Source: a bacterium
GTDB lineage: Bacteria; AUK180
Length of the DNA: 18,942 nucleotides
Assembly: GCA_021162505.1 (NCBI GenBank)
Contig: JAGGYO010000291.1
Coordinates: forward strand, 1 to 18,942
Direction of reading: 5' to 3'
The notes under the pieces: generated by a model
The model's database searches: none
Told to the model about the DNA's origin: nothing
Seen by the model: only the letters and a program-made list of their open reading frames with translations
Position numbers and translations under genes: made by a program
In this document: positions 1,728-9,606 of the stretch, piece by piece
How positions within the stretch are numbered: position 1 is the first letter of the stretch
How the letters are laid out: each line of letters begins with the position of its first letter

Positions 1728-1901
1728 ATGATCAAACTCGACAAAGAAGCTTGTATTGGTTGTGCAGTTTGCGCAAGTATGTGTCCTGATGTATTTGAAA
1801 TTCAGGATGATGGCAAAGCCGGTCTTATCTCACAAGAAAATATTGATTGTGCAAAAGAAGCCGCTGAAGCCTGCCCAGTTAGTTGTATTACTGTAGACTA
1901 A
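1728..1901 (+). CDS. small 4Fe-4S ferredoxin
   Basis: 57 aa. Its CIGCAVCASMCP...CP pattern is typical of a mono-cluster Fd, as in Desulfovibrio/Pyrococcus ferredoxins. GGAGG at 1718-1722 sits 5 nt before ATG 1728, so this internal ATG is preferred over the 1716 ATG. A terminator follows immediately. Confidence 0.8.
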   Translation: MIKLDKEACIGCAVCASMCPDVFEIQDDGKAGLISQENIDCAKEAAEACPVSCITVD

Positions 1902-1993: not shown

Positions 1994-2069
1994 CGGGGAG
2001 TGGCGCAGATGGCAGCGCGCATGGTTTGGGACCATGAGGCCGCGGGTTCGAGTCCCGCTTCCCCGACCA
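1994..2069 (+). tRNA. tRNA-Pro (anticodon TGG), CCA encoded
   Basis: A full cloverleaf was folded by hand. Acceptor CGGGGAG pairs with CTTCCCCG. D-stem is GCGC/GCGC. Anticodon stem is CATGG/CCATG with loop TTTGGGA, giving anticodon TGG. T-arm is GCGGG-TTCGAGT-CCCGC. Discriminator A precedes CCA at 2067-2069. Confidence 0.85.
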
Positions 2070-2082
2070 TTATTAAAAATAT

Positions 2083-2155
2083 GCATCCTTAGCTCAACGG
2101 ATAGAGCGTCGGACTTCGAATCCGCAGGTTGCAGGTTCGAATCCTGCAGGGTGCG
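2083..2155 (+). tRNA. tRNA-Arg (anticodon TCG), no encoded CCA
   Basis: Acceptor GCATCCT pairs with AGGGTGC. D-stem is GCTC/GAGC. The anticodon stem has 4 bp plus a T.C mismatch at the top. Loop CTTCGAA gives anticodon TCG. T-arm is GCAGG-TTCGAAT-CCTGC, followed by a T8 run. Confidence 0.7.
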
Positions 2156-2163
2156 TTTTTTTT

Positions 2164-2180
2164 AAGTCAAAGGTCGAAGT
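2164..2180. repeat. copy 1 of the dispersed 'TTAGTCAAAGGTCGAAAG'-like motif (other copies at 13398-13413 and 13525-13540)
   Basis: AGTCAAAGGTCGAAGTA sits directly after the tRNA-Arg T-run. Near-identical cores AGTCAAAGTTCGAAAG and AGTCAAAAGTCGAAAG occur in the gap that follows the 12740 gene. Confidence 0.5.
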
Positions 2181-2193
2181 AAAGAAAATATAA

Positions 2194-2217
2194 AAAAATG
2201 GAATAACCACTGAGCAC
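2194..2217. repeat. 24-bp dispersed repeat AAAATGGAATAACCAC[T/G]GAGCACT (second copy at 12392-12415)
   Basis: The two copies match at 23 of 24 positions. Both are preceded by an A-rich ATATAAAAAAAT stretch. The core GAGCAC recurs as inverted copies at 2461-2468 and 2500-2507, and as degenerate copies at 12547-12559 and 12576-12589. Confidence 0.6.
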
Positions 2218-2246
2218 TCTGAGCATAGACAGGTTAAAGAGAAATT

Positions 2247-2270
2247 AATTCTTCATTTGTCTTCCGTCAT
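2247..2270. repeat. 24-bp direct repeat ATTCTTCATTTGTCTTCCGTCATC (second copy at 2542-2565)
   Basis: Exact duplicate about 295 bp apart. The second copy is preceded by a 7-bp tandem (TTCATTC x3, 2530-2550). Both copies are followed by a CTTGAC-containing hairpin-like segment. Confidence 0.6.
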
Positions 2271-2310
2271 CCAGAGTCACAAAGTGGCGTAGGGATCTCA
2301 TTTTTTCCCT

Positions 2311-2430
2311 GTCATTCCGTGCTTGACACGGAATCTATCTTTTGGCGTTTAACCCCGTATTTACAGGTCATTCCTGCGAAGGCAGGAATCCATTCATCCT
2401 TGTCATTATGAGCTTTTACAAAGTAAAAGC
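2311..2430. repeat. tandem array of three GTCATT-initiated hairpin units (REP-like)
   Basis: GTCATT occurs at 2311, 2367 and 2402, each followed by a perfect 8-bp stem. The three hairpins are ATTCCGTG-cttga-CACGGAAT (2314-2334), ATTCCTGC-gaag-GCAGGAAT (2370-2389) and GCTTTTAC-aaa-GTAAAAGC (2412-2430). Confidence 0.55.
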
Positions 2431-2458
2431 GTAATAATCTCATTATTCTTTATTCTCA

Positions 2459-2510
2459 GTGTGCTCCGCCTGCCTGTGCGTGTCCGCACGCAAACAGGTG
2501 TGCTCCGTGG
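2459..2510. repeat. hairpin flanked by 10-bp direct repeats GTGTGCTCCG
   Basis: GTGTGCTCCG occurs at 2459-2468 and 2498-2507. Between them, CCTGTGCGTG-tccg-CACGCA(aa)CAGG forms a roughly 10-bp stem with a 2-nt bulge (2472-2498). The reverse complement of GTGCTCCG is CGGAGCAC, which links this element to the 2194/12392 repeat core. Confidence 0.5.
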
Positions 2511-2640
2511 TAATTCAATTCTCTTTAATTCTTCATTCTTCATTCTTCATTTGTCTTCCGTCATCTTCGGACTTGACCCGGGAATTTGGATACAATCGTA
2601 TTAAGTATAAAAAAAATAGAACAAATATACCTCAAAAAAT

Positions 2641-2669
2641 TTGACTTTTTAGGTCTTTTCAATTATAAA
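2641..2669 (+). promoter_or_regulatory. putative sigma70 promoter for the Type III R-M operon
   Basis: TTGACT (2641-2646), a 17-nt spacer, then TATAAA (2664-2669). An AAGGAG RBS at 2714-2719 precedes ATG 2728. Confidence 0.45.
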
Positions 2670-2727
2670 AAAATAATATTACGAGGCATGCGATTTGAAT
2701 GTATAAGATATTAAAGGAGTACGGATA

Positions 2728-4659
2728 ATGGACGGCAAATCATTGAGTATCAGTGAAGACAAATTAAATCAATTAAAGAATATTTTGCCAGAAGCATTTA
2801 CCGAAGATAAAATTGATTGGGAAAAATTGAAAGCAGCTCTCGGAGATAATATTGAATTTAAGAATGAAAGATATGTATTGAATTGGGCAGGCAAATCAGA
2901 TGCGTTCAGAGTCCTACAAGAACAGACGACGGCAACTCTTATTCCCAATAAAGAGGAATCAATTGATTTTGATGATACGGAAAATATCTTCATTGAAGGT
3001 GAAAATCTTGAAGTGTTGAAGGTTCTTCAAAAATCATATTACGGTAAGATAAAGATGATATATATTGATCCGCCGTATAATACGGGAAATGATTTCGTGT
3101 ATTCGGATAAATTTCAGGAAGACAGACGGGACTATGAAAAAAGAGCAGGCATTAAGGATGAGAATGGGTACCTAAAAAGAGAAGGATTGATAAAAAATAC
3201 AAAAGATAAAGGACATTATCACAGTAATTGGCTTTCAATGATTTATCCGAGATTATTTCTTGCAAGAAATTTACTTAGAGATGATGGCGTGATTTTTGTC
3301 TCAATTGGTCAAAACGAGATTGGTAATCTGCTTATATTATGTAATGAAATTTTTGGTGAAGAAAATAAAATTGGTATAATTACACGATTAATGAAAAAAG
3401 GTGGTAGTAAAGGGAAATACTTTTCTCCTAATACTGAATATATTTTGGTTTATTCTCGAAACATTGAGCAAGTAAAAGATTTTAGATTGTCACTTGAACG
3501 GGATTTTATAGATAAAATTTATACACAGATTGAAAAAGACGGAAATAATAAAGGCGAACGTTTTAGAGAAATGGGTTTATACCAAGCCGGTCTTGATATC
3601 CGTGCCAACCAACGATATTGGATTAAATGCCCAGATGGTACATATGTAATACCTCCAGGTCGTACTATTCCTCAAAAAGTATCAGAAGGCGAGCAAATAA
3701 AACCGGAAAAAGGAGATGGCGTTTGGCGTTGGACTTATGATCGTTACAAACAAGAATTTCTATTAAACAATATATCTTTTAAAGAAACAAAGACTTCTTC
3801 ATTACAGAACGGAAATAGCAAACAATCGAAGTGGAATATTTATACAAAAATATGGCTTAAAAATCGTATAAAGGAAGGTCGTGTTCCTGTTGATTATATT
3901 GATAAATTTGAAAATAGGATTAGCTCGAGAGAACTTAAAAAAATAAATATCCCTTTTGATTTTGCCAAACCATCAGAATTAATCAAGCATTTAATAAAAA
4001 TTAGTCAAATTAATGAAAATAACATCATTCTCGATTTTTTCGCAGGTTCCGGCACAACTGCCCACGCCGTTCTTGATTTGAACAAGGAAGACAGCGGGAA
4101 TCGTAAATTTATACTTGTTCAAATGCCGGAAAAAACTGACGAAATGAGTGAAGCTTACAAAGCAGGCTATAAAACCATTGCTGAGATTGGCAAAGAACGA
4201 ATTCGAAGAGTTATAAAGAAAATAAGAGAAGAAACTCCAAAGAAAGAACTAAAGAATTCGGATCTTGGCTTTAAGGTATTCAAGTTACGAGAATCCAATT
4301 TTAAGATATGGCGTTCAAATAATGTAAATGATGAAGAGACTCTCATCAAACTTATGGAAGATCATATTGATCCGGTAAAAGACGGTTCAAAAATAGAAAA
4401 TATACTTTACGAACTTTTATTGAAATCAGGCATTGAATTGACAACGAAAATTGAGAAAAAGAGCGGTTATTATTCGGCAAATAATAAGAAAATAATTTTT
4501 ATTTTGGAAAAAATTGATGAAAATATTATTCAGGATATTCTTTTGCAAAAACCGAAAAAGGTAATAACGCTTGACCGATTATTTAAAAATAATGACCAAT
4601 TAAAAACAAATACCGCATTGCAAATGAAAGATGCGGAAATAGATTTCGAGGTGGTGTAA
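2728..4659 (+). CDS. mod: Type III restriction-modification system, Mod subunit (N6-adenine DNA methyltransferase, beta class)
   Basis: 643 aa, the same size class as EcoP15I Mod. Motif IV DPPYNTGNDF lies near aa 115 and SAM-binding motif I FFAGSGTTAHAV near aa 430, the IV-TRD-I order typical of Type III Mod. AAGGAG RBS precedes the ATG and the stop is TAA. Confidence 0.9.
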   Translation: MDGKSLSISEDKLNQLKNILPEAFTEDKIDWEKLKAALGDNIEFKNERYVLNWAGKSDAFRVLQEQTTATLIPNKEESIDFDDTENIFIEGENLEVLKVLQKSYYGKIKMIYIDPPYNTGNDFVYSDKFQEDRRDYEKRAGIKDENGYLKREGLIKNTKDKGHYHSNWLSMIYPRLFLARNLLRDDGVIFVSIGQNEIGNLLILCNEIFGEENKIGIITRLMKKGGSKGKYFSPNTEYILVYSRNIEQVKDFRLSLERDFIDKIYTQIEKDGNNKGERFREMGLYQAGLDIRANQRYWIKCPDGTYVIPPGRTIPQKVSEGEQIKPEKGDGVWRWTYDRYKQEFLLNNISFKETKTSSLQNGNSKQSKWNIYTKIWLKNRIKEGRVPVDYIDKFENRISSRELKKINIPFDFAKPSELIKHLIKISQINENNIILDFFAGSGTTAHAVLDLNKEDSGNRKFILVQMPEKTDEMSEAYKAGYKTIAEIGKERIRRVIKKIREETPKKELKNSDLGFKVFKLRESNFKIWRSNNVNDEETLIKLMEDHIDPVKDGSKIENILYELLLKSGIELTTKIEKKSGYYSANNKKIIFILEKIDENIIQDILLQKPKKVITLDRLFKNNDQLKTNTALQMKDAEIDFEVV

Positions 4660-4663
4660 TTAT

Positions 4664-5749
4664 ATGGAACCATTTATACCGGATAAATTACCTTTAAAAA
4701 ATATTGATTGGGAGAAATTCATTTCTTTGATTAGCGAAGCTAATCGGGAACTTGTAAAATTTGATTCATTGTTAAATAGTATTCCAGACCCAAATATATT
4801 GCTTTCTCCATTAATTACAAATGAAGCTGTTCTTTCTTCGAGAATAGAAGGAACACAAGCAACTCTTGAAGATATTTATAAATTTGAAGCTAATTCGAAA
4901 AATAAAGTAGAAAAATATGATGATATAATTGAAATTATTAATTATAGAAAAGCTATTATTACTGCAAGTAAAGAGCTAAAAAAAACTCCGTTAAGTGGTC
5001 GAATTGTCCGTAAAATTCATAAAATATTACTTTCGGGCGCGCGTGGGAAAAATAAAACTCCGGGTGAATTCAGGACCGGTATTGTTTATATCGGTAGGCT
5101 TGGAGCTGATATTGGAAACGCTAATTTTATCCCCCCAGAACCGCAATATATTAATGATCATTTTAGTAATTTAGAAAAGTATATTCATTTTAAAGAGAAA
5201 GATACTATTACGCAGTTAGGGATTGTTCATGCTCAGTTTGAGATTATTCATCCGTTTTGGGATGGTAATGGCAGGACCGGACGAATTCTTTTACCTCTTT
5301 TTCTTTATTATAAAAAAATTATTAATTCTCCTAATTTTTATCTGAGTGAATATTTTGAAAAAAACAGAGAAGCGTATAATGCAAACTTAAATAGTATATC
5401 TGAAACAGGTAAATGGGAAAATTGGATAGAGTTTTTTCTAAAAGCCGTAATAACACAATCTTCAAAAAATAGAAAAAAAGTTGAGGAAATTTTAACTCTA
5501 CATAGAAAAGTACTTGATGAAGTTCAAAATATAATACATTCGCAATATACGCATAAAGTGGTAGAGTTTATATTTTCAAATCCTTGGTTTGATACAGCAA
5601 AGTTCAAAAAGCAAACGGGAATACCTAAATCAAATGCAGCAAGAATTTTACGATTATTAGAAAAAGATATTTTGAAATTGGTTGAAAAAGGTAAAGGCCA
5701 GCGACCTTCATTATATGATTTTCCAGAATTAATAGAAATTATTAAATGA
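4664..5749 (+). CDS. fic: Fic-family protein (class II, intramolecular inhibitory helix), embedded in the R-M operon
   Basis: Canonical Fic motif HPFWDGNGRTGR near aa 196-207 (HPFx[DE]GNGR). An N-terminal inhibitory-helix motif SSRIEG ([ST]xxxE[GN]) lies near aa 59-64. The ATG sits 4 nt after the mod stop. The basic C-terminal tail is possibly wHTH-like. Confidence 0.9.
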   Translation: MEPFIPDKLPLKNIDWEKFISLISEANRELVKFDSLLNSIPDPNILLSPLITNEAVLSSRIEGTQATLEDIYKFEANSKNKVEKYDDIIEIINYRKAIITASKELKKTPLSGRIVRKIHKILLSGARGKNKTPGEFRTGIVYIGRLGADIGNANFIPPEPQYINDHFSNLEKYIHFKEKDTITQLGIVHAQFEIIHPFWDGNGRTGRILLPLFLYYKKIINSPNFYLSEYFEKNREAYNANLNSISETGKWENWIEFFLKAVITQSSKNRKKVEEILTLHRKVLDEVQNIIHSQYTHKVVEFIFSNPWFDTAKFKKQTGIPKSNAARILRLLEKDILKLVEKGKGQRPSLYDFPELIEIIK

Positions 5750-5945
5750 ATATTTTTTTTGTGTTCAATATATTACCCGCAAAACTATTTGCGTCCCATA
5801 TTACTCGTTATATTGTACGCAGAATATTTAGCTTCCCACGGAATGAACAGAAAAAAACATATTACCTCAGGTTTATTCATTTCACGATTTGCTCAAAGCA
5901 TTTTATTGCTAGTAGGGTTTACAAGTTGTTATCGGGAGTTTACAA

Positions 5946-8570
5946 TTGAAACTGCATTTTGACCCGAACCAAAAATTTCAGCTTGATGCAATAAATTCCA
6001 TTGTAAATATTTTTGAAGGGCAAATTTTAAGAAAAGGAATTTTTACACTATCAAATGAAAATGATCCCGAACTTTTTATTATAGAGTATATAAGTAATCG
6101 TCTAAATTTGGGTAAAGAACAAATATTGGAAAATGTTCAAAAAATTCAAAAGGAAAACGAATTACCCGCAATAAAAGAACTTGACGGAATGAATTTTTCC
6201 GTGGAAATGGAAACCGGAACGGGTAAAACCTATGTATATCTCAGAACAATTTATGAATTGAATAAAAAATACGGGTTTAAAAAATTTGTTATTGTTGTTC
6301 CATCAATTGCAATTAAAGAAGGAGTTCTTAAAAATCTGGAAATTACCTATGACCATTTTCAAAATCTCTATGACAATGAACCGGTAAATTATTATGTTTA
6401 TGATTCAAAAAAAGTTTCAATATTAAGGCAATTTGCTTCTGCAAACACAATTCAAATCCTTGTTATCAATATTGATTCATTTGCAAAAGATGAAAATATC
6501 ATAAATCGTTACAACGATAAACTTACAGGGAGAAAACCGCGAGAATTCGTAATCAATACACATCCTATTGTTATTGTGGATGAACCGCAAAATATGGAAA
6601 CGGAAAAACGAAAAAAGGCAATTAATAATTTGAATCCTCTTTGTACTTTGCGATATTCCGCCACTCATACCAATAAATATAATATGGTTTATTCTCTTAA
6701 TCCCGTGAGGGCTTATGATCTCGGATTAGTAAAACAAATTGAAGTGGACTCTATTATGACTGAAAATGACTTTAACGATGCTTATGTGGCACTTAAAAAT
6801 GTGAAAGCAACCCAAAGCCATATCTATGCAAATGTTTTTATTGATATAAAAACGGAAAATGGGATAAAGCGGAAGCTTGTTTCGGTTAAATCGGGTGATG
6901 ATCTTTATAAAAAATCTAATAAAAGGGAGATATATAAAAATGGTTATATTGTAAACGAAATTGATTCTGAAAATAAATATCTTGAATTTTCAAACGGGAA
7001 AAACCTAACATTGGGCAGCAATCTCGGTTCAAAAATCGATGATATAATGAAGGTTCAGATATACAAAACAGTTGAAGAGCACCTCTGGAAAGAAAAAAAA
7101 TATAGAGAGAAAGGTATTAAAATTTTGTCTCTTTTCTTTATAGACAAGGTTTCAAATTATCGTGATTATGATTCAACCGGAAATCCTGTGAAAGGAAAAA
7201 TTGCCCTATGGTTTGAAGAAATATTTACCGAACTTATCTCTCAAGAAAGATTTAAAAATATGAATTCTTTTGATGTAGAAAAAATACATAACGGTTATTT
7301 TTCACAGGACAAGAAAGGTGTATGGAAAGATACCATGGGAAACTCAAAGGCAGATGATAACACCTATAAATTAATAATGAAAGATAAAGAAAAGCTGTTG
7401 GATATTAATGAGCCGCTACAATTTATTTTCAGCCATTCCGCACTTCGTGAAGGCTGGGATAATCCCAATGTATTTCAAATATGTAATTTAAGGGAAATGT
7501 CAAGTGAAAGGGAAAAAAGACAAACCATAGGAAGAGGACTACGACTTCCCGTAAATCAAGATGGAATAAGAATTCAGGATAAAAATATTAATCGTCTTAC
7601 GGTAATTGCCAATGAATCCTACGAGGATTTCGCCAAACAATTACAAACACAAATAGAAGAAGAATGCGGTGTTTCATTTGGGGGCAGAATAAAAAATAAA
7701 CAAAATAGGGCAGTTGTTAAATATCGTAAAGGGTTTAAATTAGATGAAAATTTTCAGAGTATTTGGAATAGAATAAAGTATAAAATCAATTACAAAGTTA
7801 CATATAATACTGAAGATTTAATTGAAAAAGCGGCGAAAGCCGTCAAGGAAATGGGAAATGTGGAAAAAGCAAAAATATCAATTACAAGAGTTGGGATAAA
7901 TATTGAAGAAAACGGTGTGTCAACTGAAATAAAGTCATCGGGAACTAAAGAAATAGATGACAAACCAATTTTACCCGACATACTATTTTATATTGAGGAA
8001 AAAACAGAATTGACGCGTTCTACTATTATGAAAATATTAAAAAAAACGGGGAGAATTTCGGATATATTAATTAACCCGCAGGTATTTCTTGATAAAACCG
8101 TGGATGCGATAAAAAATGTTTTATATGATCTTATGATCGACGGTATAAAATATGAGAAAATTGGAAAAAAGGAATACGAAATGCGATTGTTTGAGGAGTA
8201 TGAAATACATGTAAATGATCTGACATTTAAAATAAATAAGAAGGATAAAACCATTTACGAAAATCTTGTTCCACTCGACTCTAATGTTGAATATGATTTT
8301 GCAAAGGAATGTGAAAGCAGAGATGATATAAAATTTTATTTTAAACTTCCTTTCTGGTTCAAAATTAGAACACCCATAGGAAATTATAATCCGGACTGGG
8401 CATTGATTAAGAAAAATGAAGAAACTATTTATTTTATTGCGGAAACAAAATCAGAGGGTGAGGAATTGAGGCAGAGTGAACAACAGAAAATCAAATGTGG
8501 GAAAGCTCATTTCAAAGAATTTAAAGATGTTAAATATAAAAGGATTGCTTCTGTAAAGGAACTTGATTAG
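5946..8570 (+). CDS. res: Type III restriction-modification system, Res subunit (SF2 helicase/ATPase plus C-terminal PD-ExK nuclease)
   Basis: 874 aa. Walker A is METGTGKT, motif II is IVIVDEPQN, and a C-terminal PD...E.K motif is NPDWALI...FIAETK. The only in-frame start after the frame stop at 5913 is TTG 5946, preceded by GGGAG (5934-5938). The first in-frame ATG would delete the conserved N-terminus. Confidence 0.85.
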   Translation: MKLHFDPNQKFQLDAINSIVNIFEGQILRKGIFTLSNENDPELFIIEYISNRLNLGKEQILENVQKIQKENELPAIKELDGMNFSVEMETGTGKTYVYLRTIYELNKKYGFKKFVIVVPSIAIKEGVLKNLEITYDHFQNLYDNEPVNYYVYDSKKVSILRQFASANTIQILVINIDSFAKDENIINRYNDKLTGRKPREFVINTHPIVIVDEPQNMETEKRKKAINNLNPLCTLRYSATHTNKYNMVYSLNPVRAYDLGLVKQIEVDSIMTENDFNDAYVALKNVKATQSHIYANVFIDIKTENGIKRKLVSVKSGDDLYKKSNKREIYKNGYIVNEIDSENKYLEFSNGKNLTLGSNLGSKIDDIMKVQIYKTVEEHLWKEKKYREKGIKILSLFFIDKVSNYRDYDSTGNPVKGKIALWFEEIFTELISQERFKNMNSFDVEKIHNGYFSQDKKGVWKDTMGNSKADDNTYKLIMKDKEKLLDINEPLQFIFSHSALREGWDNPNVFQICNLREMSSEREKRQTIGRGLRLPVNQDGIRIQDKNINRLTVIANESYEDFAKQLQTQIEEECGVSFGGRIKNKQNRAVVKYRKGFKLDENFQSIWNRIKYKINYKVTYNTEDLIEKAAKAVKEMGNVEKAKISITRVGINIEENGVSTEIKSSGTKEIDDKPILPDILFYIEEKTELTRSTIMKILKKTGRISDILINPQVFLDKTVDAIKNVLYDLMIDGIKYEKIGKKEYEMRLFEEYEIHVNDLTFKINKKDKTIYENLVPLDSNVEYDFAKECESRDDIKFYFKLPFWFKIRTPIGNYNPDWALIKKNEETIYFIAETKSEGEELRQSEQQKIKCGKAHFKEFKDVKYKRIASVKELD

Positions 8571-8607: not shown

Positions 8608-8636
8608 TTGACAGTAATTAGTAATTTTGTTATAAT
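8608..8636 (+). promoter_or_regulatory. consensus sigma70 promoter for the hydrolase/MdcA-like operon
   Basis: Exact TTGACA (8608-8613), a 17-nt spacer, then exact TATAAT (8631-8636). This leaves a roughly 65-nt leader before ATG 8710. Confidence 0.6.
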
Positions 8637-8709
8637 CTATCATGCAATTCAAATTATTTCAAATATTCACTTTCCAATCCAAGATCAAAAAAGTAGAGGA
8701 GTATTGCTT

Positions 8710-9606
8710 ATGAAAGAAGTTACCGTTGCCGGCGTACAAATTTCCGTTTATCCCAATAATATTGATAAAAATATAGAAAAAATTGTTCATTGGTATAAAA
8801 AATCGGTAAAAGAAACGAAAGCGAAATTAGTGGTCTTTCCGGAAACAGTAACTACCGGATTTTCGCCCGGGATGCCGTTAGAGAAATTCTATGAGGTTTT
8901 ACCTATGGATATTAAGAAAAAATTGAAACCAATAATGGAGATTAGTAAAAAAACAAAAACAAGTGTTATCATTCCAACTTACGAAAAAACAAATAAGAAA
9001 AATGTTATTTATAATAGTGCTTTTTTCATACGAAATGGTGAAATTGTGGGAAAGTATAGGAAAACGCATCTATTCCCCACAGAGAGAATTACAAGAGAAG
9101 GTGGCTGGTCAACATATGGAAATGATTATCCCGTATTTGATACGGATTTCGGTAAAGTCGGAATTATGATCTGTTATGATGGTGATTTTCCTGAAATCGC
9201 AAGAATATTAGCAATAAAAGGAGCCGAGATCATTGCAAGACCTTCTGCATTATTAAGAAGTTATGATATTTGGGAAATGACGAATAAGGCTCGTGCCTAT
9301 GATAATCATACTTATATTATTGCAGTAAATTCAGTAGGTCCCGATAATGAAAGCAATTATTTTTTCGGACATAGTATGATCGTGTCTCCAATTGCCAGAA
9401 AATTAGCATTAGCAAGGGGAAGTGAAGAGATCATTTATGCGAAACTCGATCCCAAGCCAATAAAAAAAGTCACTTACGGGTCAGATGCTCCTATGCTTTT
9501 TGACCACCTGGAAGATAGAAATATTGAATCCTACAAAAACTATCTTACAAAAAAGGCAAGATCGAATTTCGAACCGCATAAGCGGATAAAGGGAAAGAAA
9601 AAATGA
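8710..9606 (+). CDS. carbon-nitrogen hydrolase (nitrilase superfamily) family protein
   Basis: 298 aa. VAGVQISVYPNNIDKN...VVFPE is a typical N-terminus with the catalytic Glu region. The MICYDGDFPE segment carries the catalytic Cys of the CN_hydrolase fold. GAGGAG at 8696-8701 sits 8 nt before ATG 8710. The ORF track's 8608 start lies inside the promoter. Confidence 0.8.
   Translation: MKEVTVAGVQISVYPNNIDKNIEKIVHWYKKSVKETKAKLVVFPETVTTGFSPGMPLEKFYEVLPMDIKKKLKPIMEISKKTKTSVIIPTYEKTNKKNVIYNSAFFIRNGEIVGKYRKTHLFPTERITREGGWSTYGNDYPVFDTDFGKVGIMICYDGDFPEIARILAIKGAEIIARPSALLRSYDIWEMTNKARAYDNHTYIIAVNSVGPDNESNYFFGHSMIVSPIARKLALARGSEEIIYAKLDPKPIKKVTYGSDAPMLFDHLEDRNIESYKNYLTKKARSNFEPHKRIKGKKK

What the first reader, a model, noticed from the sequence alone, without database searches (positions are those of the whole stretch)
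2728..8570. Type III R-M operon with a Fic (AMPylase-type) gene inserted between mod and res
mod (2728-4659), fic (4664-5749) and res (5946-8570) are co-directional. mod and fic are separated by only 4 nt. Canonical Type III systems are a two-gene mod-res unit, so a third enzymatic gene inside the operon is unusual.

The Fic protein carries a catalytically intact HPFWDGNGRTGR motif, its own inhibitory-helix motif SSRIEG, and a basic C-terminal tail. It may be a toxin or abortive-infection effector wired to restriction. Alternatively it may modify Mod or Res, or act as a regulator. Fic/Doc genes embedded in Type I hsd loci are an established precedent; a Type III mod-fic-res arrangement is, to my knowledge, not a described architecture.
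Basis: partly seen in the sequence, partly recalled or inferred. Interest (0 to 1): 0.8.

Follow-up and report, generated by a model that had tools for sequence, protein, structure and literature searches.

The report
SoFic defence gene inside Type III restriction operon
A known anti-phage toxin gene (a SoFic-type Fic enzyme) sits between the two genes of a Type III restriction-modification system; this spot often carries extra defence genes in related systems, and the Fic gene brings along a previously undescribed DNA repeat array that is probably its own binding site.

Summary

The Fic is a full-length member of the SoFic family, a described single-gene anti-phage system (PADLOC E 7e-110; fold TM 0.85 to SoFic 3EQX). 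It has an intact catalytic motif, an inhibitory helix in cis and a C-terminal winged helix.

The arrangement recurs but is modular:
- All six members of the closest Fic clade (70-100% identity) sit directly after a Type III mod, and a distant Pigmentiphaga locus is also mod-fic-res.
- Other relatives sit in Type I or ISP R-M operons, or alone.
- Close mod-res relatives lack fic.
- In 31 of 67 related mod-res pairs the junction carries other cargo, including Old, SIR2-HerA, a CBASS cyclase, RhuM and Schlafen-like proteins.

This is "defence embedded in defence", published for Type I R-M, BREX, DISARM and Hma, and extended here to Type III.

One feature is new. A ~96-nt dyad-symmetric array of six helically phased half-sites (5758-5853) lies just 3' of fic. 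It travels with fic in every context and never with res. It is most likely the operator of the Fic winged-helix dimer.

No functional coupling between Fic and restriction is shown.

The parts
2641..2669 (+). Candidate sigma70-type promoter of the operon: TTGACT (2641-2646), 17-nt spacer, TATAAA (2664-2669), about 60 nt upstream of the mod start.
   Evidence: Read directly from the sequence. The consensus scan did not list it because that scan requires T at the last position of the -10 hexamer. This is an inference only.
2728..4659 (+). mod: Type III DNA methyltransferase, 643 aa, with DPPY and FAGSGTT motifs.
   Evidence: ORF. Pfam N6_N4_Mtase 6e-33. PADLOC MTase_III 1.4e-182 over residues 3-639. 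Relatives at 35-71% identity lie upstream of Res relatives in 67 loci.
4664..5749 (+). fic: SoFic-family class II Fic AMP-transferase, 361 aa. Features are an N-terminal dimerisation helix, the inhibitory motif SSRIEG (58-63), the Fic motif HPFWDGNGRTGR (196-207) and a C-terminal winged helix (~296-360).
   Evidence: PADLOC SoFic 6.8e-110 over residues 2-360 of 361. Pfam Fic_N plus Fic. PDB sequence hits to EcSofic 9VJC (1e-31) and SoFic (1e-29). AlphaFold2 pLDDT 88 and pTM 0.89. Foldseek best match is SoFic 3EQX, TM 0.85.
5758..5853 (.). Fic-linked dyad-symmetric repeat array of six 11-nt half-sites: R1 5758-5768, L1 5773-5783, R2 5788-5798, L2 5813-5823, R3 5828-5838, L3 5843-5853. R is about TTTGYGxxTCA and L is its reverse complement. 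The layout is R-N4-L-N4-R-N14-L-N4-R-N4-L. T/A-rich extensions reach 5754-5857. It is a candidate operator for the Fic winged-helix dimer.
   Evidence: Repeats. Iterative nhmmer found it at 41 places in 2.9 Mb of related loci. Of these, 36 lie within 300 nt 3' of a fic stop and 4 lie just 5' of a fic start. None is in the 80 Res-centred loci. Anatomy comes from 26 distinct copies. There is no register-specific covariation, and G-U versus A-C mismatches are balanced at 55:47. No Rfam match.
5946..8570 (+). res: Type III restriction subunit, 874 aa. It is an SF2 helicase (ETGTGKT, VDEPQ) with a C-terminal PD-(D/E)xK endonuclease (NPDW...AETK).
   Evidence: ORF. Pfam ResIII 4e-17 and RE_endonuc 7e-35. 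PADLOC REase_III 4e-302. The N-terminus MKLHFDPN is conserved in relatives, which confirms the TTG start.

Best explanation
The window carries a complete Type III R-M system whose mod-res junction holds an embedded, self-contained SoFic-type defence module. That module is the fic gene plus a ~96-nt array of binding-site-like repeats that always accompanies this Fic subclade.

Shown:
- The identity and intactness of all three proteins.
- Recurrence of mod-fic(-x)-res in independent genomes.
- Use of the mod-res junction as a general cargo slot in this Type III subfamily.
- Co-migration of the array with fic.

Inferred:
- fic has no room for a promoter of its own (4-nt gap), so it is co-transcribed with mod and probably translationally coupled to it.
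- Its product is a dimeric, auto-inhibited AMP-transferase. By analogy with characterised SoFic proteins, it AMPylates a core host protein when phage infection relieves inhibition. SoFic modifies EF-Tu switch I and reduces protein synthesis; EcSofic is toxic and is described as causing abortive infection.
- Restriction would then be the first layer of defence and Fic a second, abortive layer, inherited and expressed as one unit.
- The C-terminal winged helices of the Fic dimer bind the adjacent array. Related Fic-wHTH proteins bind palindromes in this way: CccR is an autorepressor, SoFic binds its own upstream DNA, and in Coxiella Fic2 DNA binding switches the enzyme's activity.
- Because the array lies between fic and res, Fic occupancy could also modulate read-through into res. 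This last step is speculative.
For: Identity:
- Searches support the SoFic HMM match at full length, intact motifs, and TM 0.85 to 3EQX including the wHTH.

Recurrence:
- All six members of the 70-100% identity Fic clade lie 2-4 nt after a Type III mod: the window, P0003, P0005, P0007, P0008 and P0010.
- P0007 is exactly mod-fic-res.
- Pigmentiphaga L018 (Fic 43% identical) is mod-fic-res, and L042 is mod-fic.

Modularity:
- Relatives sit in Type I loci (L006, L011, L014, L015, L016, L179), an ISP locus (L008), or alone.
- An R-M gene lies within two genes of fic in 9/10 loci at >=55% identity, 7/19 at 42-55%, and 6/57 below 42%.

Cargo slot:
- Of 67 related mod-res pairs, 28 have gaps under 100 nt and 31 have inserts of 0.9-4.9 kb. 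The inserted genes are almost all co-directional.
- The inserts match Old, SIR2 plus HerA, a CBASS cyclase, NsnA, Type IIG, Ppl, PDC-S05/RhuM, Schlafen-like proteins and ABC ATPases.
- The insert boundaries coincide with the mod stop and the res start.

Fic without R-M:
- In L004/L005 fic and its array are intact, while only ~50 aa of Mod and ~30-aa ends of Res remain.

Literature:
- Payne et al. 10.1101/2024.01.29.577857, PMC12249575, bioRxiv 10.64898/2026.07.09.737422, PMC9755527, PMC10628234.
Against: - No experiment or expression data exist for this locus. Anti-phage activity, the AMPylation target and DNA binding are all transferred from homologues only 24-30% identical (SoFic, EcSofic).
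- The tight and consistent placement of this Fic subclade directly after a methylase-side gene (mod, hsdM, hsdS) and before the translocase/nuclease gene hints at more than random hitch-hiking.
- The array is 3' of fic in most loci. The characterised Fic-wHTH operators are 5' in their promoters, so an autoregulatory role is not straightforward.
- None of the 67 Res-centred loci had a SoFic-type Fic in the slot, so mod-fic-res is a minority state.
Confidence: 0.65

Rival explanations
1. Guard coupling, as in PrrC-EcoprrI. Fic would be held inactive by, or would monitor, the Mod/Res complex. It would fire when a phage anti-restriction protein disables the R-M enzyme, so the embedding would be functional, not merely genetic.
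For: - This Fic subclade is embedded in three different R-M types, nearly always next to the methylase-side gene with a -4 to +9 nt junction.
- The precedent of PrrC in the hsd locus is cited for embedded systems in general.
Against: - The same slot carries many unrelated effectors.
- Fic persists intact after mod and res have decayed (L004/L005).
- Close relatives stand alone (P0016; L022, L023 and L025).
- SoFic homologues are reported to defend as single genes (PMC11514479).
- No interaction data exist.
Confidence: 0.15
2. Fic as a controller of restriction. The Fic winged-helix dimer would bind the array between fic and res and set the level or timing of res expression, analogous to C proteins of Type II systems. 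The AMPylase activity would be secondary.
For: - The array lies 45-97 nt upstream of res in the window and L172, and 32-142 nt upstream of hsdR in L011, L014 and L179.
- CccR is a Fic-wHTH repressor and SoFic binds DNA specifically.
- The helical phasing of the half-site cores fits protein binding.
Against: - The array stays attached to fic when the next gene is convergent or unrelated (L004, L022, L025, L032) and when there is no R-M system at all.
- It is absent from all 80 Res-centred loci without fic, so res does not need it.
- No convincing promoter for res lies in or after the array.
Confidence: 0.1
3. The conserved fic-res element acts as RNA, not as a DNA binding site. It could be a 3' stabiliser or attenuator made of three tandem hairpins, or a type III-antitoxin-like repeat RNA that neutralises Fic.
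For: - The + strand RNA folds better than shuffled sequence (z = -3.2), while the - strand gives z = -1.4.
- RNAalifold draws two 7-13 bp stems, with double changes at 13 of 22 pairs.
- The repeat period is ~40 nt, next to a toxin gene.
- EcSofic is neutralised by a downstream element whose protein product could not be purified.
Against: - No pairing register is favoured. Any R half-site is 55-78% complementary to any L half-site at lineage-specific positions.
- G-U and A-C mismatches are balanced, 55 versus 47.
- The cores are conserved in sequence across phyla and spaced at multiples of ~10 bp.
- The element scores equally on both strands.
- In EcSofic-like loci the inverted repeats are upstream of fic, not downstream.
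- There is no Rfam match.
Confidence: 0.05
4. The Fic is a housekeeping regulator or an addiction (toxin-antitoxin-like) module that only stabilises the R-M island and has no role in phage defence.
For: - EcSofic behaves as a toxin with a neutralising partner.
- SoFic-like genes also sit in non-defence operons, for example the virB operon of Salmonella IncF plasmids.
Against: - No antitoxin candidate is conserved here. The 67-codon ORF 5746-5949 has no homologue in any related locus.
- The inhibitory helix is in cis.
- The gene's neighbours in this subclade are overwhelmingly defence genes.
Confidence: 0.05

Closest known systems
SoFic / EcSofic single-gene anti-phage system (PADLOC and DefenseFinder 'SoFic'; structures 3EQX, 3ZCN, 9VJC)
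   Same: It shares the full-length architecture: dimerisation helix, cis inhibitory helix (S/T)xxxE(G/N), Fic motif and C-terminal winged helix. The HMM match is 6.8e-110 and the fold TM is 0.85.
   Different: - It is only ~24% identical to SoFic itself.
- It is not stand-alone. It is embedded 4 nt after a Type III mod with no promoter region of its own.
- Its repeat array lies 3' of the gene, whereas SoFic and EcSofic-like loci have their binding region or inverted repeats 5'.
- No AS1-like small gene is conserved.
Defence systems embedded in other defence systems ('guilt-by-embedding', Payne et al., bioRxiv 10.1101/2024.01.29.577857)
   Same: The cargo is nested between the genes of a DNA-modification-based system and has the same orientation. 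It varies between homologous host systems, and its homologues also occur outside them.
   Different: That study analysed Hma, BREX, DISARM and Type I R-M. Type III R-M was not among the hosts. Here the slot is a single, sharply defined junction, from the mod stop to the res start.
PrrC anticodon nuclease in the EcoprrI Type I hsd locus
   Same: An abortive-infection effector gene sits inside an R-M operon.
   Different: PrrC is physically masked by the R-M enzyme and unleashed by the T4 Stp peptide. No such dependence is shown here, and Fic survives loss of mod and res in L004/L005.
CccR of Yersinia pseudotuberculosis and Fic2 of Coxiella burnetii (Fic-wHTH proteins that bind DNA)
   Same: They are class II Fic proteins with a C-terminal winged helix, are dimeric, and recognise inverted repeats whose spacing matches the distance between the two wHTH domains. 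In the array found here, the cores of an R-N4-L unit lie ~20 bp (~68 A) apart.
   Different: CccR binds one palindrome pair in its own promoter and is a secreted T6SS effector. Here there are six half-sites, placed 3' of the gene in an R-M operon, and binding is untested.
Canonical Type III R-M systems (EcoP1I, EcoP15I)
   Same: Mod and Res carry all the signature motifs, and mod lies upstream of res on the same strand.
   Different: 1,286 bp are inserted between the two genes, where related systems have 3-16 nt.

Membership tests
SoFic family (class II Fic defence protein) | Fic catalytic motif HxFx(D/E)GNGRxxR | tested here: met
   HPFWDGNGRTGR at residues 196-207. H196, P197, F198, D200, G201, N202, G203, R204, G206 and R207 are invariant in 34 homologues.
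SoFic family (class II Fic defence protein) | Inhibitory helix motif (S/T)xxxE(G/N) on the same chain, N-terminal to the Fic motif (class II) | tested here: met
   SSRIEG at residues 58-63, inside predicted helix 48-61. S58, S59, I61, E62 and G63 are invariant.
SoFic family (class II Fic defence protein) | Full-length match to the family profile and fold, including the C-terminal winged helix | tested here: met
   PADLOC SoFic 6.8e-110, residues 2-360 against profile positions 7-358 of 361. Foldseek to 3EQX gives TM 0.85 over ~365 columns. The wHTH secondary-structure pattern spans residues 296-360.
SoFic family (class II Fic defence protein) | Protects against phage; AMPylates a host target | not testable with these tools
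   Known only for homologues (PMC12249575; bioRxiv 10.64898/2026.07.09.737422; PMC11514479 citing Millman 2022).
SoFic family (class II Fic defence protein) | Stand-alone single-gene locus | tested here: not met
   The gene lies 4 nt after mod, inside an R-M operon. This concerns how the system is catalogued, not the protein family.
Type III restriction-modification | Mod: N6/N4 methyltransferase with DPPY and FxGxG motifs, Type III profile | tested here: met
   PADLOC MTase_III 1.4e-182 and Pfam N6_N4_Mtase. The motifs IDPPYNTG and DFFAGSGTT are in the translation.
Type III restriction-modification | Res: SF2 helicase motifs plus a C-terminal PD-(D/E)xK nuclease | tested here: met
   PADLOC REase_III 4e-302, Pfam ResIII plus RE_endonuc. 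ETGTGKT, VDEPQ and NPDW...AETK are in the translation.
Type III restriction-modification | Two-gene unit with mod immediately followed by res | tested here: not met
   There are 1,286 bp between the mod stop and the res start. Related systems have 3-33 nt in 28 of 67 cases.
Embedded defence cargo (guilt-by-embedding) | Nested between genes of one multigene defence system, in the same orientation | tested here: met
   The cargo ORFs called in 31 related loci are almost all on the same strand as mod and res.
Embedded defence cargo (guilt-by-embedding) | Homologous host systems exist without the cargo or with different cargo | tested here: met
   28 tight junctions and 31 junctions with other cargo among 67 relatives.
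Embedded defence cargo (guilt-by-embedding) | Cargo homologues also occur outside the host system | tested here: met
   Type I, ISP and stand-alone contexts, and a plasmid T4SS operon.
PrrC-type R-M-guarded effector | Effector is inhibited by physical association with the R-M enzyme and released by an anti-restriction factor | not testable with these tools
   Only the genetic embedding is seen. The decayed locus L004/L005 keeps fic without mod or res, which argues against obligate dependence.
Class I Fic toxin-antitoxin (FicT/FicA, VbhT/VbhA) or Sofic-AS1 pair | A separate small antitoxin gene next to fic, conserved with it | tested here: not met
   The only candidate, the 67-codon ORF 5746-5949, has no homologue in any of the related loci (best tblastn E 0.2), and the inhibitory helix is in cis.
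Structured RNA / type III antitoxin repeats (for the 5758-5853 element) | Register-specific compensatory changes and an excess of G-U over A-C on the transcribed strand | tested here: not met
   All R:L combinations are similarly complementary, and G-U versus A-C is 55 versus 47. No Rfam family matches.
Operator array for a dimeric wHTH protein (for the 5758-5853 element) | Sequence-conserved half-sites in inverted orientation, helically phased, co-inherited with the binding protein | tested here: met
   The cores TTTGYG/CRCAAA are conserved across phyla and centred ~10, 20 or 30 bp apart. 40 of 41 copies lie next to fic and none lies elsewhere in the Res-centred loci. Actual binding is not testable here.

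The most novel reading that the evidence does not exclude
The Fic subclade and its cis array could form a DNA-tethered sensor-effector that is functionally integrated with restriction enzymes. Fic dimers would sit on the six-site array between the methylase-side gene and the nuclease/translocase gene (res or hsdR).

Occupancy would do two things. It would hold the enzyme in its harmless state, as in Coxiella Fic2, where DNA binding switches AMPylation to deAMPylation. It would also throttle transcription into res.

Events that displace Fic would then release the AMPylase and de-repress restriction at the same moment. Such events include phage takeover, DNA damage around the locus, or entry of the operon into a naive host.

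This would be a new kind of controller logic for Type I and Type III R-M systems, and a new activation mechanism for SoFic.
Probability: 0.12. Interest if true: 0.8.

Novelty: new variant of a known kind. Interest (0 to 1): 0.5.

Why it matters
1. Type III R-M operons, like Type I, BREX, DISARM and Hma, have a defined slot (mod stop to res start) that frequently carries other immune genes. In this sample about 46% of relatives carry cargo. Several cargo proteins have no recognisable family, so the slot is a cheap hunting ground for new defence genes. Annotation pipelines that expect adjacent mod-res may also miss or split such systems.

2. SoFic is one of the most prevalent defence genes in surveys, and its activation mechanism is unknown. 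A conserved six-half-site array that always accompanies one large subclade gives a concrete, testable DNA ligand for its winged-helix domain.

3. The locus is a natural test case for a basic question: are embedded defences merely co-inherited, or are they regulated together with their host system?

Tried and rejected
1. **Small antitoxin gene.** The 67-codon ORF 5746-5949 overlaps the fic stop (ATGA) and the res start (TTGA), which looked like an AS1-type antitoxin. It has no homologue in any related locus. A second frame is open over the same stretch, and the stretch is conserved as a palindromic DNA repeat with a 40-nt period. It is rejected as a gene.

2. **Structured RNA or type III antitoxin.** The + strand fold z-score (-3.2) and the RNAalifold stems were suggestive. 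The register test and the G-U/A-C test gave no RNA signal, and Rfam has no match.

3. **'AS1 of EcSofic is really such an array.'** EcSofic-like plasmid loci have their inverted repeats upstream of fic and none downstream. Not supported.

4. **'The array is 5' when fic has its own promoter region and 3' only when embedded.'** This holds only partly. The array is 3' in all 23 abutting cases, but also 3' in five loci with upstream gaps.

5. **Array as a res control element.** It is absent from all 80 Res-centred loci.

6. **REP/MITE or integron attC.** The element is specific to fic across phyla, has no R''/R' core sites, and consists of six equivalent half-sites. Rejected on anatomy.

7. **tRNA-targeted genomic island.** There is no repeat of the tRNA-Arg 3' end and no integrase in the window.

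8. **Detectors that were too strict.** A fixed-sequence motif and a generic palindrome-pair detector missed clear cases. A profile search replaced them.

Full report
**1. Observation**

The window holds three intact co-directional ORFs at exactly the stated coordinates:
- mod, 2728-4659
- fic, 4664-5749
- res, 5946-8570, with a TTG start preceded by GGGAG

mod and fic are 4 nt apart, and fic and res are 196 nt apart.

Family assignments:
- Mod matches the Type III methyltransferase profile end to end (PADLOC 1.4e-182).
- Res matches the Type III restriction profile (4e-302) and carries ResIII helicase and RE_endonuc domains.
- Fic carries Fic_N plus Fic.

They are almost entirely invariant among 34 homologues.

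**2. What the Fic is**

The protein matches PADLOC's SoFic model over its whole length (6.8e-110). Its best sequence matches among solved structures are EcSofic 9VJC and Shewanella SoFic.

An AlphaFold2 model (pLDDT 88, pTM 0.89) superposes on SoFic 3EQX with TM 0.85 over the full chain. The 'basic C-terminal tail' is a winged-helix domain, residues ~296-360.

SoFic is a catalogued single-gene anti-phage system. The literature reports the following:
- EcSofic is toxic, needs dimerisation and its C-terminal domain, and is described as causing abortive infection through AMPylation (PMC12249575).
- SoFic AMPylates EF-Tu switch I, which reduces protein synthesis. It needs to be a dimer to AMPylate, and it binds DNA specifically within the 100 bp upstream of its own gene (bioRxiv 10.64898/2026.07.09.737422).
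- Related Fic-wHTH proteins bind palindromes (CccR, PMC9755527) or are switched by DNA binding (Coxiella Fic2, PMC10628234).

**3. Is mod-fic-res a real, recurrent architecture?**

Yes, but it is a modular one. The family is very large: more than 6,800 hits among the candidates scored.

In the closest clade (70-100% identity), every member I could place sits 2-4 nt after a Type III mod:
- the window itself
- P0007, which is exactly mod-fic-res
- P0003, which is mod-fic-yhcG-res in a different chromosomal neighbourhood
- P0008, which is mod-fic-AAA ATPase, with the contig ending soon after
- P0010, which is mod-fic, with the contig ending just after fic
- P0005

In P0005, fic is intact but only the last ~50 residues of Mod and ~30-residue ends of Res survive. 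That is a decayed mod-fic-res locus in which fic alone was kept.

A distant relative in Pigmentiphaga daeguensis (43% identical) is again mod-fic-res, and L042 is mod-fic.

Other relatives sit in other contexts:
- Type I operons: hsdS-fic-hsdR in L011 and L014, hsdM-fic in L006 and L015, and fic-hsdR on a viral contig, L179
- an ISP-type system, L008
- alone, as in P0016
- a plasmid type IV secretion operon, for a close relative of EcSofic, which is itself only a distant homologue of the window's Fic

An R-M gene lies within two genes of fic in 9/10 loci at >=55% identity, 7/19 at 42-55%, and 6/57 below that. The window's Fic therefore belongs to an R-M-embedded subclade of SoFic, and that subclade is not tied to one R-M type.

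**4. The reciprocal view: the mod-res junction is a cargo slot**

I fetched 80 metagenomic loci encoding relatives of this Res (37-68% identical). In 67 of them a Mod relative lies upstream on the same strand.

The mod-res gap is distributed as follows:

| Gap | Loci |
|---|---|
| under 100 nt | 28 |
| 100-700 nt | 8 |
| 0.9-4.9 kb | 31 |

One of the tight junctions is L096, with Mod 71% and Res 60% identical and a 12-nt gap.

The long gaps are filled with tightly packed genes, almost all on the same strand. They include:
- RhuM, which PADLOC lists as PDC-S05, in 7 loci
- Schlafen/AlbA_2 proteins, in 6 loci
- Old and other ABC-TOPRIM ATPases
- a SIR2 plus HerA pair
- a CBASS oligonucleotide cyclase
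- NsnA (GmrSD-like) with an ATPase
- a Type IIG enzyme
- Ppl
- YhcG
- DUF3644
- a DUF6978 plus DUF1828/1829 pair
- several proteins with no family match

None of these 67 loci had a SoFic-type Fic in the slot.

Junction alignments show that the conserved mod coding sequence runs to the stop codon and the conserved res coding sequence resumes at the start codon, with or without cargo.

This is the 'embedded defence' phenomenon of Payne et al. (bioRxiv 10.1101/2024.01.29.577857). They reported it for Hma, BREX, DISARM and Type I R-M, with 96.7% of embedded genes in the host orientation. Type III was not among their hosts. I found no paper describing SoFic, or cargo in general, between Type III mod and res.

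**5. The unexpected feature: a Fic-linked repeat array**

The 196-nt fic-res gap is not a plain spacer. Aligning it with the equivalent regions of L172, L004 and L018 revealed shared palindromes.

A profile built from 10 loci and iterated with nhmmer found a ~95-nt element at 41 places in 2.9 Mb of fetched loci:
- 36 lie within 300 nt 3' of a fic stop, usually starting 2-9 nt after it.
- 4 lie just 5' of a fic start, in L009, L013 and L025. L025 has copies on both sides of fic.
- 1 lies elsewhere, in L066.
- None lies in the 80 Res-centred loci.

The element is present in Type III, Type I, ISP and non-R-M contexts, including viral contigs. It occurs only with Fic proteins at least 35% identical to the window's, and at least 39% for the copies adjacent to fic. 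It therefore belongs to the fic module, not to res.

Its anatomy, from 26 distinct copies, is six 11-nt half-sites: R, about TTTGYGxxTCA, and its complement L. They are arranged R-N4-L-N4-R-N14-L-N4-R-N4-L, so the whole element is dyad-symmetric. In the window the half-sites are at 5758-5768, 5773-5783, 5788-5798, 5813-5823, 5828-5838 and 5843-5853.

The sequence-conserved cores are centred about 20, 10, 30, 10 and 20 bp apart, which puts them on one face of the helix.

I tested whether the element is an RNA structure:
- The + strand folds better than shuffled sequence (z = -3.2).
- RNAalifold draws stems with double changes.
- However, no pairing register is favoured over any other R:L combination.
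- G-U and A-C mismatches are balanced, 55 versus 47.
- Rfam has no match.

The data fit a double-stranded array of protein recognition sites. Given the CccR and SoFic precedents, the obvious candidate ligand is the Fic winged-helix dimer. Binding itself is inferred, not shown.

The array is 3' of fic in all 23 loci where fic abuts an upstream gene, and in most other loci too. This differs from the 5' operators of CccR, SoFic and EcSofic-like loci, and I cannot explain it.

**6. Other checks**

- **Small ORF.** A 67-codon ORF (5746-5949) exactly bridges fic and res and overlaps both. It has no homologue anywhere in the related loci, and it coincides with the array. I reject it as a gene.
- **Composition.** fic has GC 0.297 and GC3 0.177. 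mod has 0.322 and 0.264, res has 0.307 and 0.254, and the flanking genes have GC3 of mostly 0.24-0.30. This is a modest sign of a separate history.
- **Island markers.** The unit lies between tRNA-Pro/tRNA-Arg and ordinary chromosomal genes. There is no integrase and no tRNA-end repeat.

**7. Mechanism and confidence**

The most likely reading (0.65) is a layered-defence unit. A functional Type III R-M system carries in its cargo slot a self-contained SoFic module, which is co-transcribed with mod. It acts as an auto-inhibited AMPylating abortive-infection effector, and its own operator-like array sits next to it.

Rival readings:
- PrrC-like guarding of the R-M enzyme (0.15)
- Fic as a controller of res through the array (0.10)
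- an RNA role for the array (0.05)
- a non-defence or addiction role (0.05)

The diversity of cargo in the same slot, the survival of fic after loss of mod and res, and the stand-alone relatives all argue for modularity. The consistent placement of this subclade between the methylase-side gene and the nuclease gene of three R-M types keeps a functional link possible.

**8. Novelty and score**

The proteins are new members of known families, and the principle of embedding is published. Two things appear to be new:
- the Type III mod-res junction as a frequent and sharply defined cargo slot
- the conserved six-half-site array that accompanies this SoFic subclade

I rate this a new variant of a known kind, with interest 0.5. 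It is not lower still, because the array gives SoFic biology a concrete and testable handle.

**Caveats**

- Neighbour classification used tblastn probes, clustering and spot Pfam/PADLOC checks.
- Several loci are the same sequence from different assemblies.
- All functional statements are transferred from homologues 24-30% identical.

Noticed in passing
window 5746-5949 (+) and 5759-5962 (+): Two overlapping 67-codon ORFs are open in two frames across the fic-res gap. The first overlaps the fic stop (ATGA) and the res start (TTGA). Neither has a homologue in any related locus. Both coincide with the repeat array, whose composition probably explains the lack of stop codons.
   Followed up: yes
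window 2157-2727: A 570-nt non-coding stretch lies between tRNA-Arg and mod, with higher GC (0.36) than its surroundings. It holds a 27-nt direct repeat (2245-2271, 2525-2551, 2539-2565), a 17-nt inverted repeat (2234-2250 / 2512-2528) and a hairpin at 2314-2334. It may be the remains of a small mobile element. No ORF of 80 aa or more lies in it.
   Followed up: partly
window 1994-2156: tRNA-Pro(TGG) and tRNA-Arg(TCG) lie directly upstream of the R-M unit. No copy of the tRNA-Arg 3' end occurs elsewhere in the window and there is no integrase, so there is no sign of a classical tRNA-targeted island.
   Followed up: yes
window 8608-8740: A perfect extended sigma70-type promoter (TTGACA, 17-nt spacer, TG, TATAAT at 8608-8636) follows res. 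The carbon-nitrogen hydrolase gene listed from TTG 8608 therefore more likely starts at ATG 8711, which is preceded by GGAGG.
   Followed up: partly
L004 3559-5285 and L005 3-1811: This is a decayed mod-fic-res locus. fic (72% identical) and its array are intact. Only the last ~50 residues of Mod, the first ~28 residues of Res (L004) and the last ~34 residues of Res (L005) remain, next to a convergent PEPCK gene. It suggests that fic is kept when restriction is lost.
   Followed up: partly
L025 8489-8729 and 10076-10315: Here fic is flanked on both sides by the same pair of elements: a 49-nt partial copy plus a ~95-nt full copy of the array. This looks like a duplicated boundary and might bear on how the cassette moves. 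The upstream gene is an acyl-CoA dehydrogenase, so the context is not R-M.
   Followed up: partly
L123 2786-3697, L125 6210-6992, L129 4579-5358; L115 6201-7001; L095 5239-6579; L153 5972-6919; L129 3087-4436: These cargo proteins in Type III mod-res slots have no Pfam match. The first three form a family of ~260-300 aa, of which only the L123 member was scanned. They are candidate new defence genes by the guilt-by-embedding logic.
   Followed up: no
L123 3-389, L126 892-1962, L128 1538-1969, L129 362-850: In four Res-centred loci a more distant Fic-like gene (25-31% identical) lies directly upstream of mod, while other cargo fills the mod-res slot. A second position in Type III operons can therefore carry Fic genes.
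   Followed up: no
L169 339-6997: In this close relative, the mod that precedes fic is 783 aa and has a DUF559 (Vsr-like endonuclease) domain. Upstream of it lie a second Fic gene (375 aa) and an AAA_21 ATPase, giving a denser defence cluster.
   Followed up: no
L256 3441-4517 (Salmonella IncF plasmid p96A29192-65): An EcSofic-like Fic (78% identical to EcSofic) is embedded in a virB-type conjugative transfer operon, between virB4 and the next T4SS gene. About 160 Salmonella plasmids carry a match to the EcSofic query. So SoFic-type genes also sit inside non-defence operons.
   Followed up: no
L089 5922-7004: The closest Res relative (68% identical) has no mod within 7 kb upstream. A 360-aa ORF with a partial subtilase (Peptidase_S8) match overlaps the res start by 4 nt, and the genes further upstream are on the opposite strand.
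   Followed up: partly
window 1729-1899: A small ORF encodes a ferredoxin-like protein with two Cys clusters (CIGCAVCASMCP ... CPVSC). It is followed by a terminator-like hairpin at 1907-1923, just before the tRNA genes.
   Followed up: no
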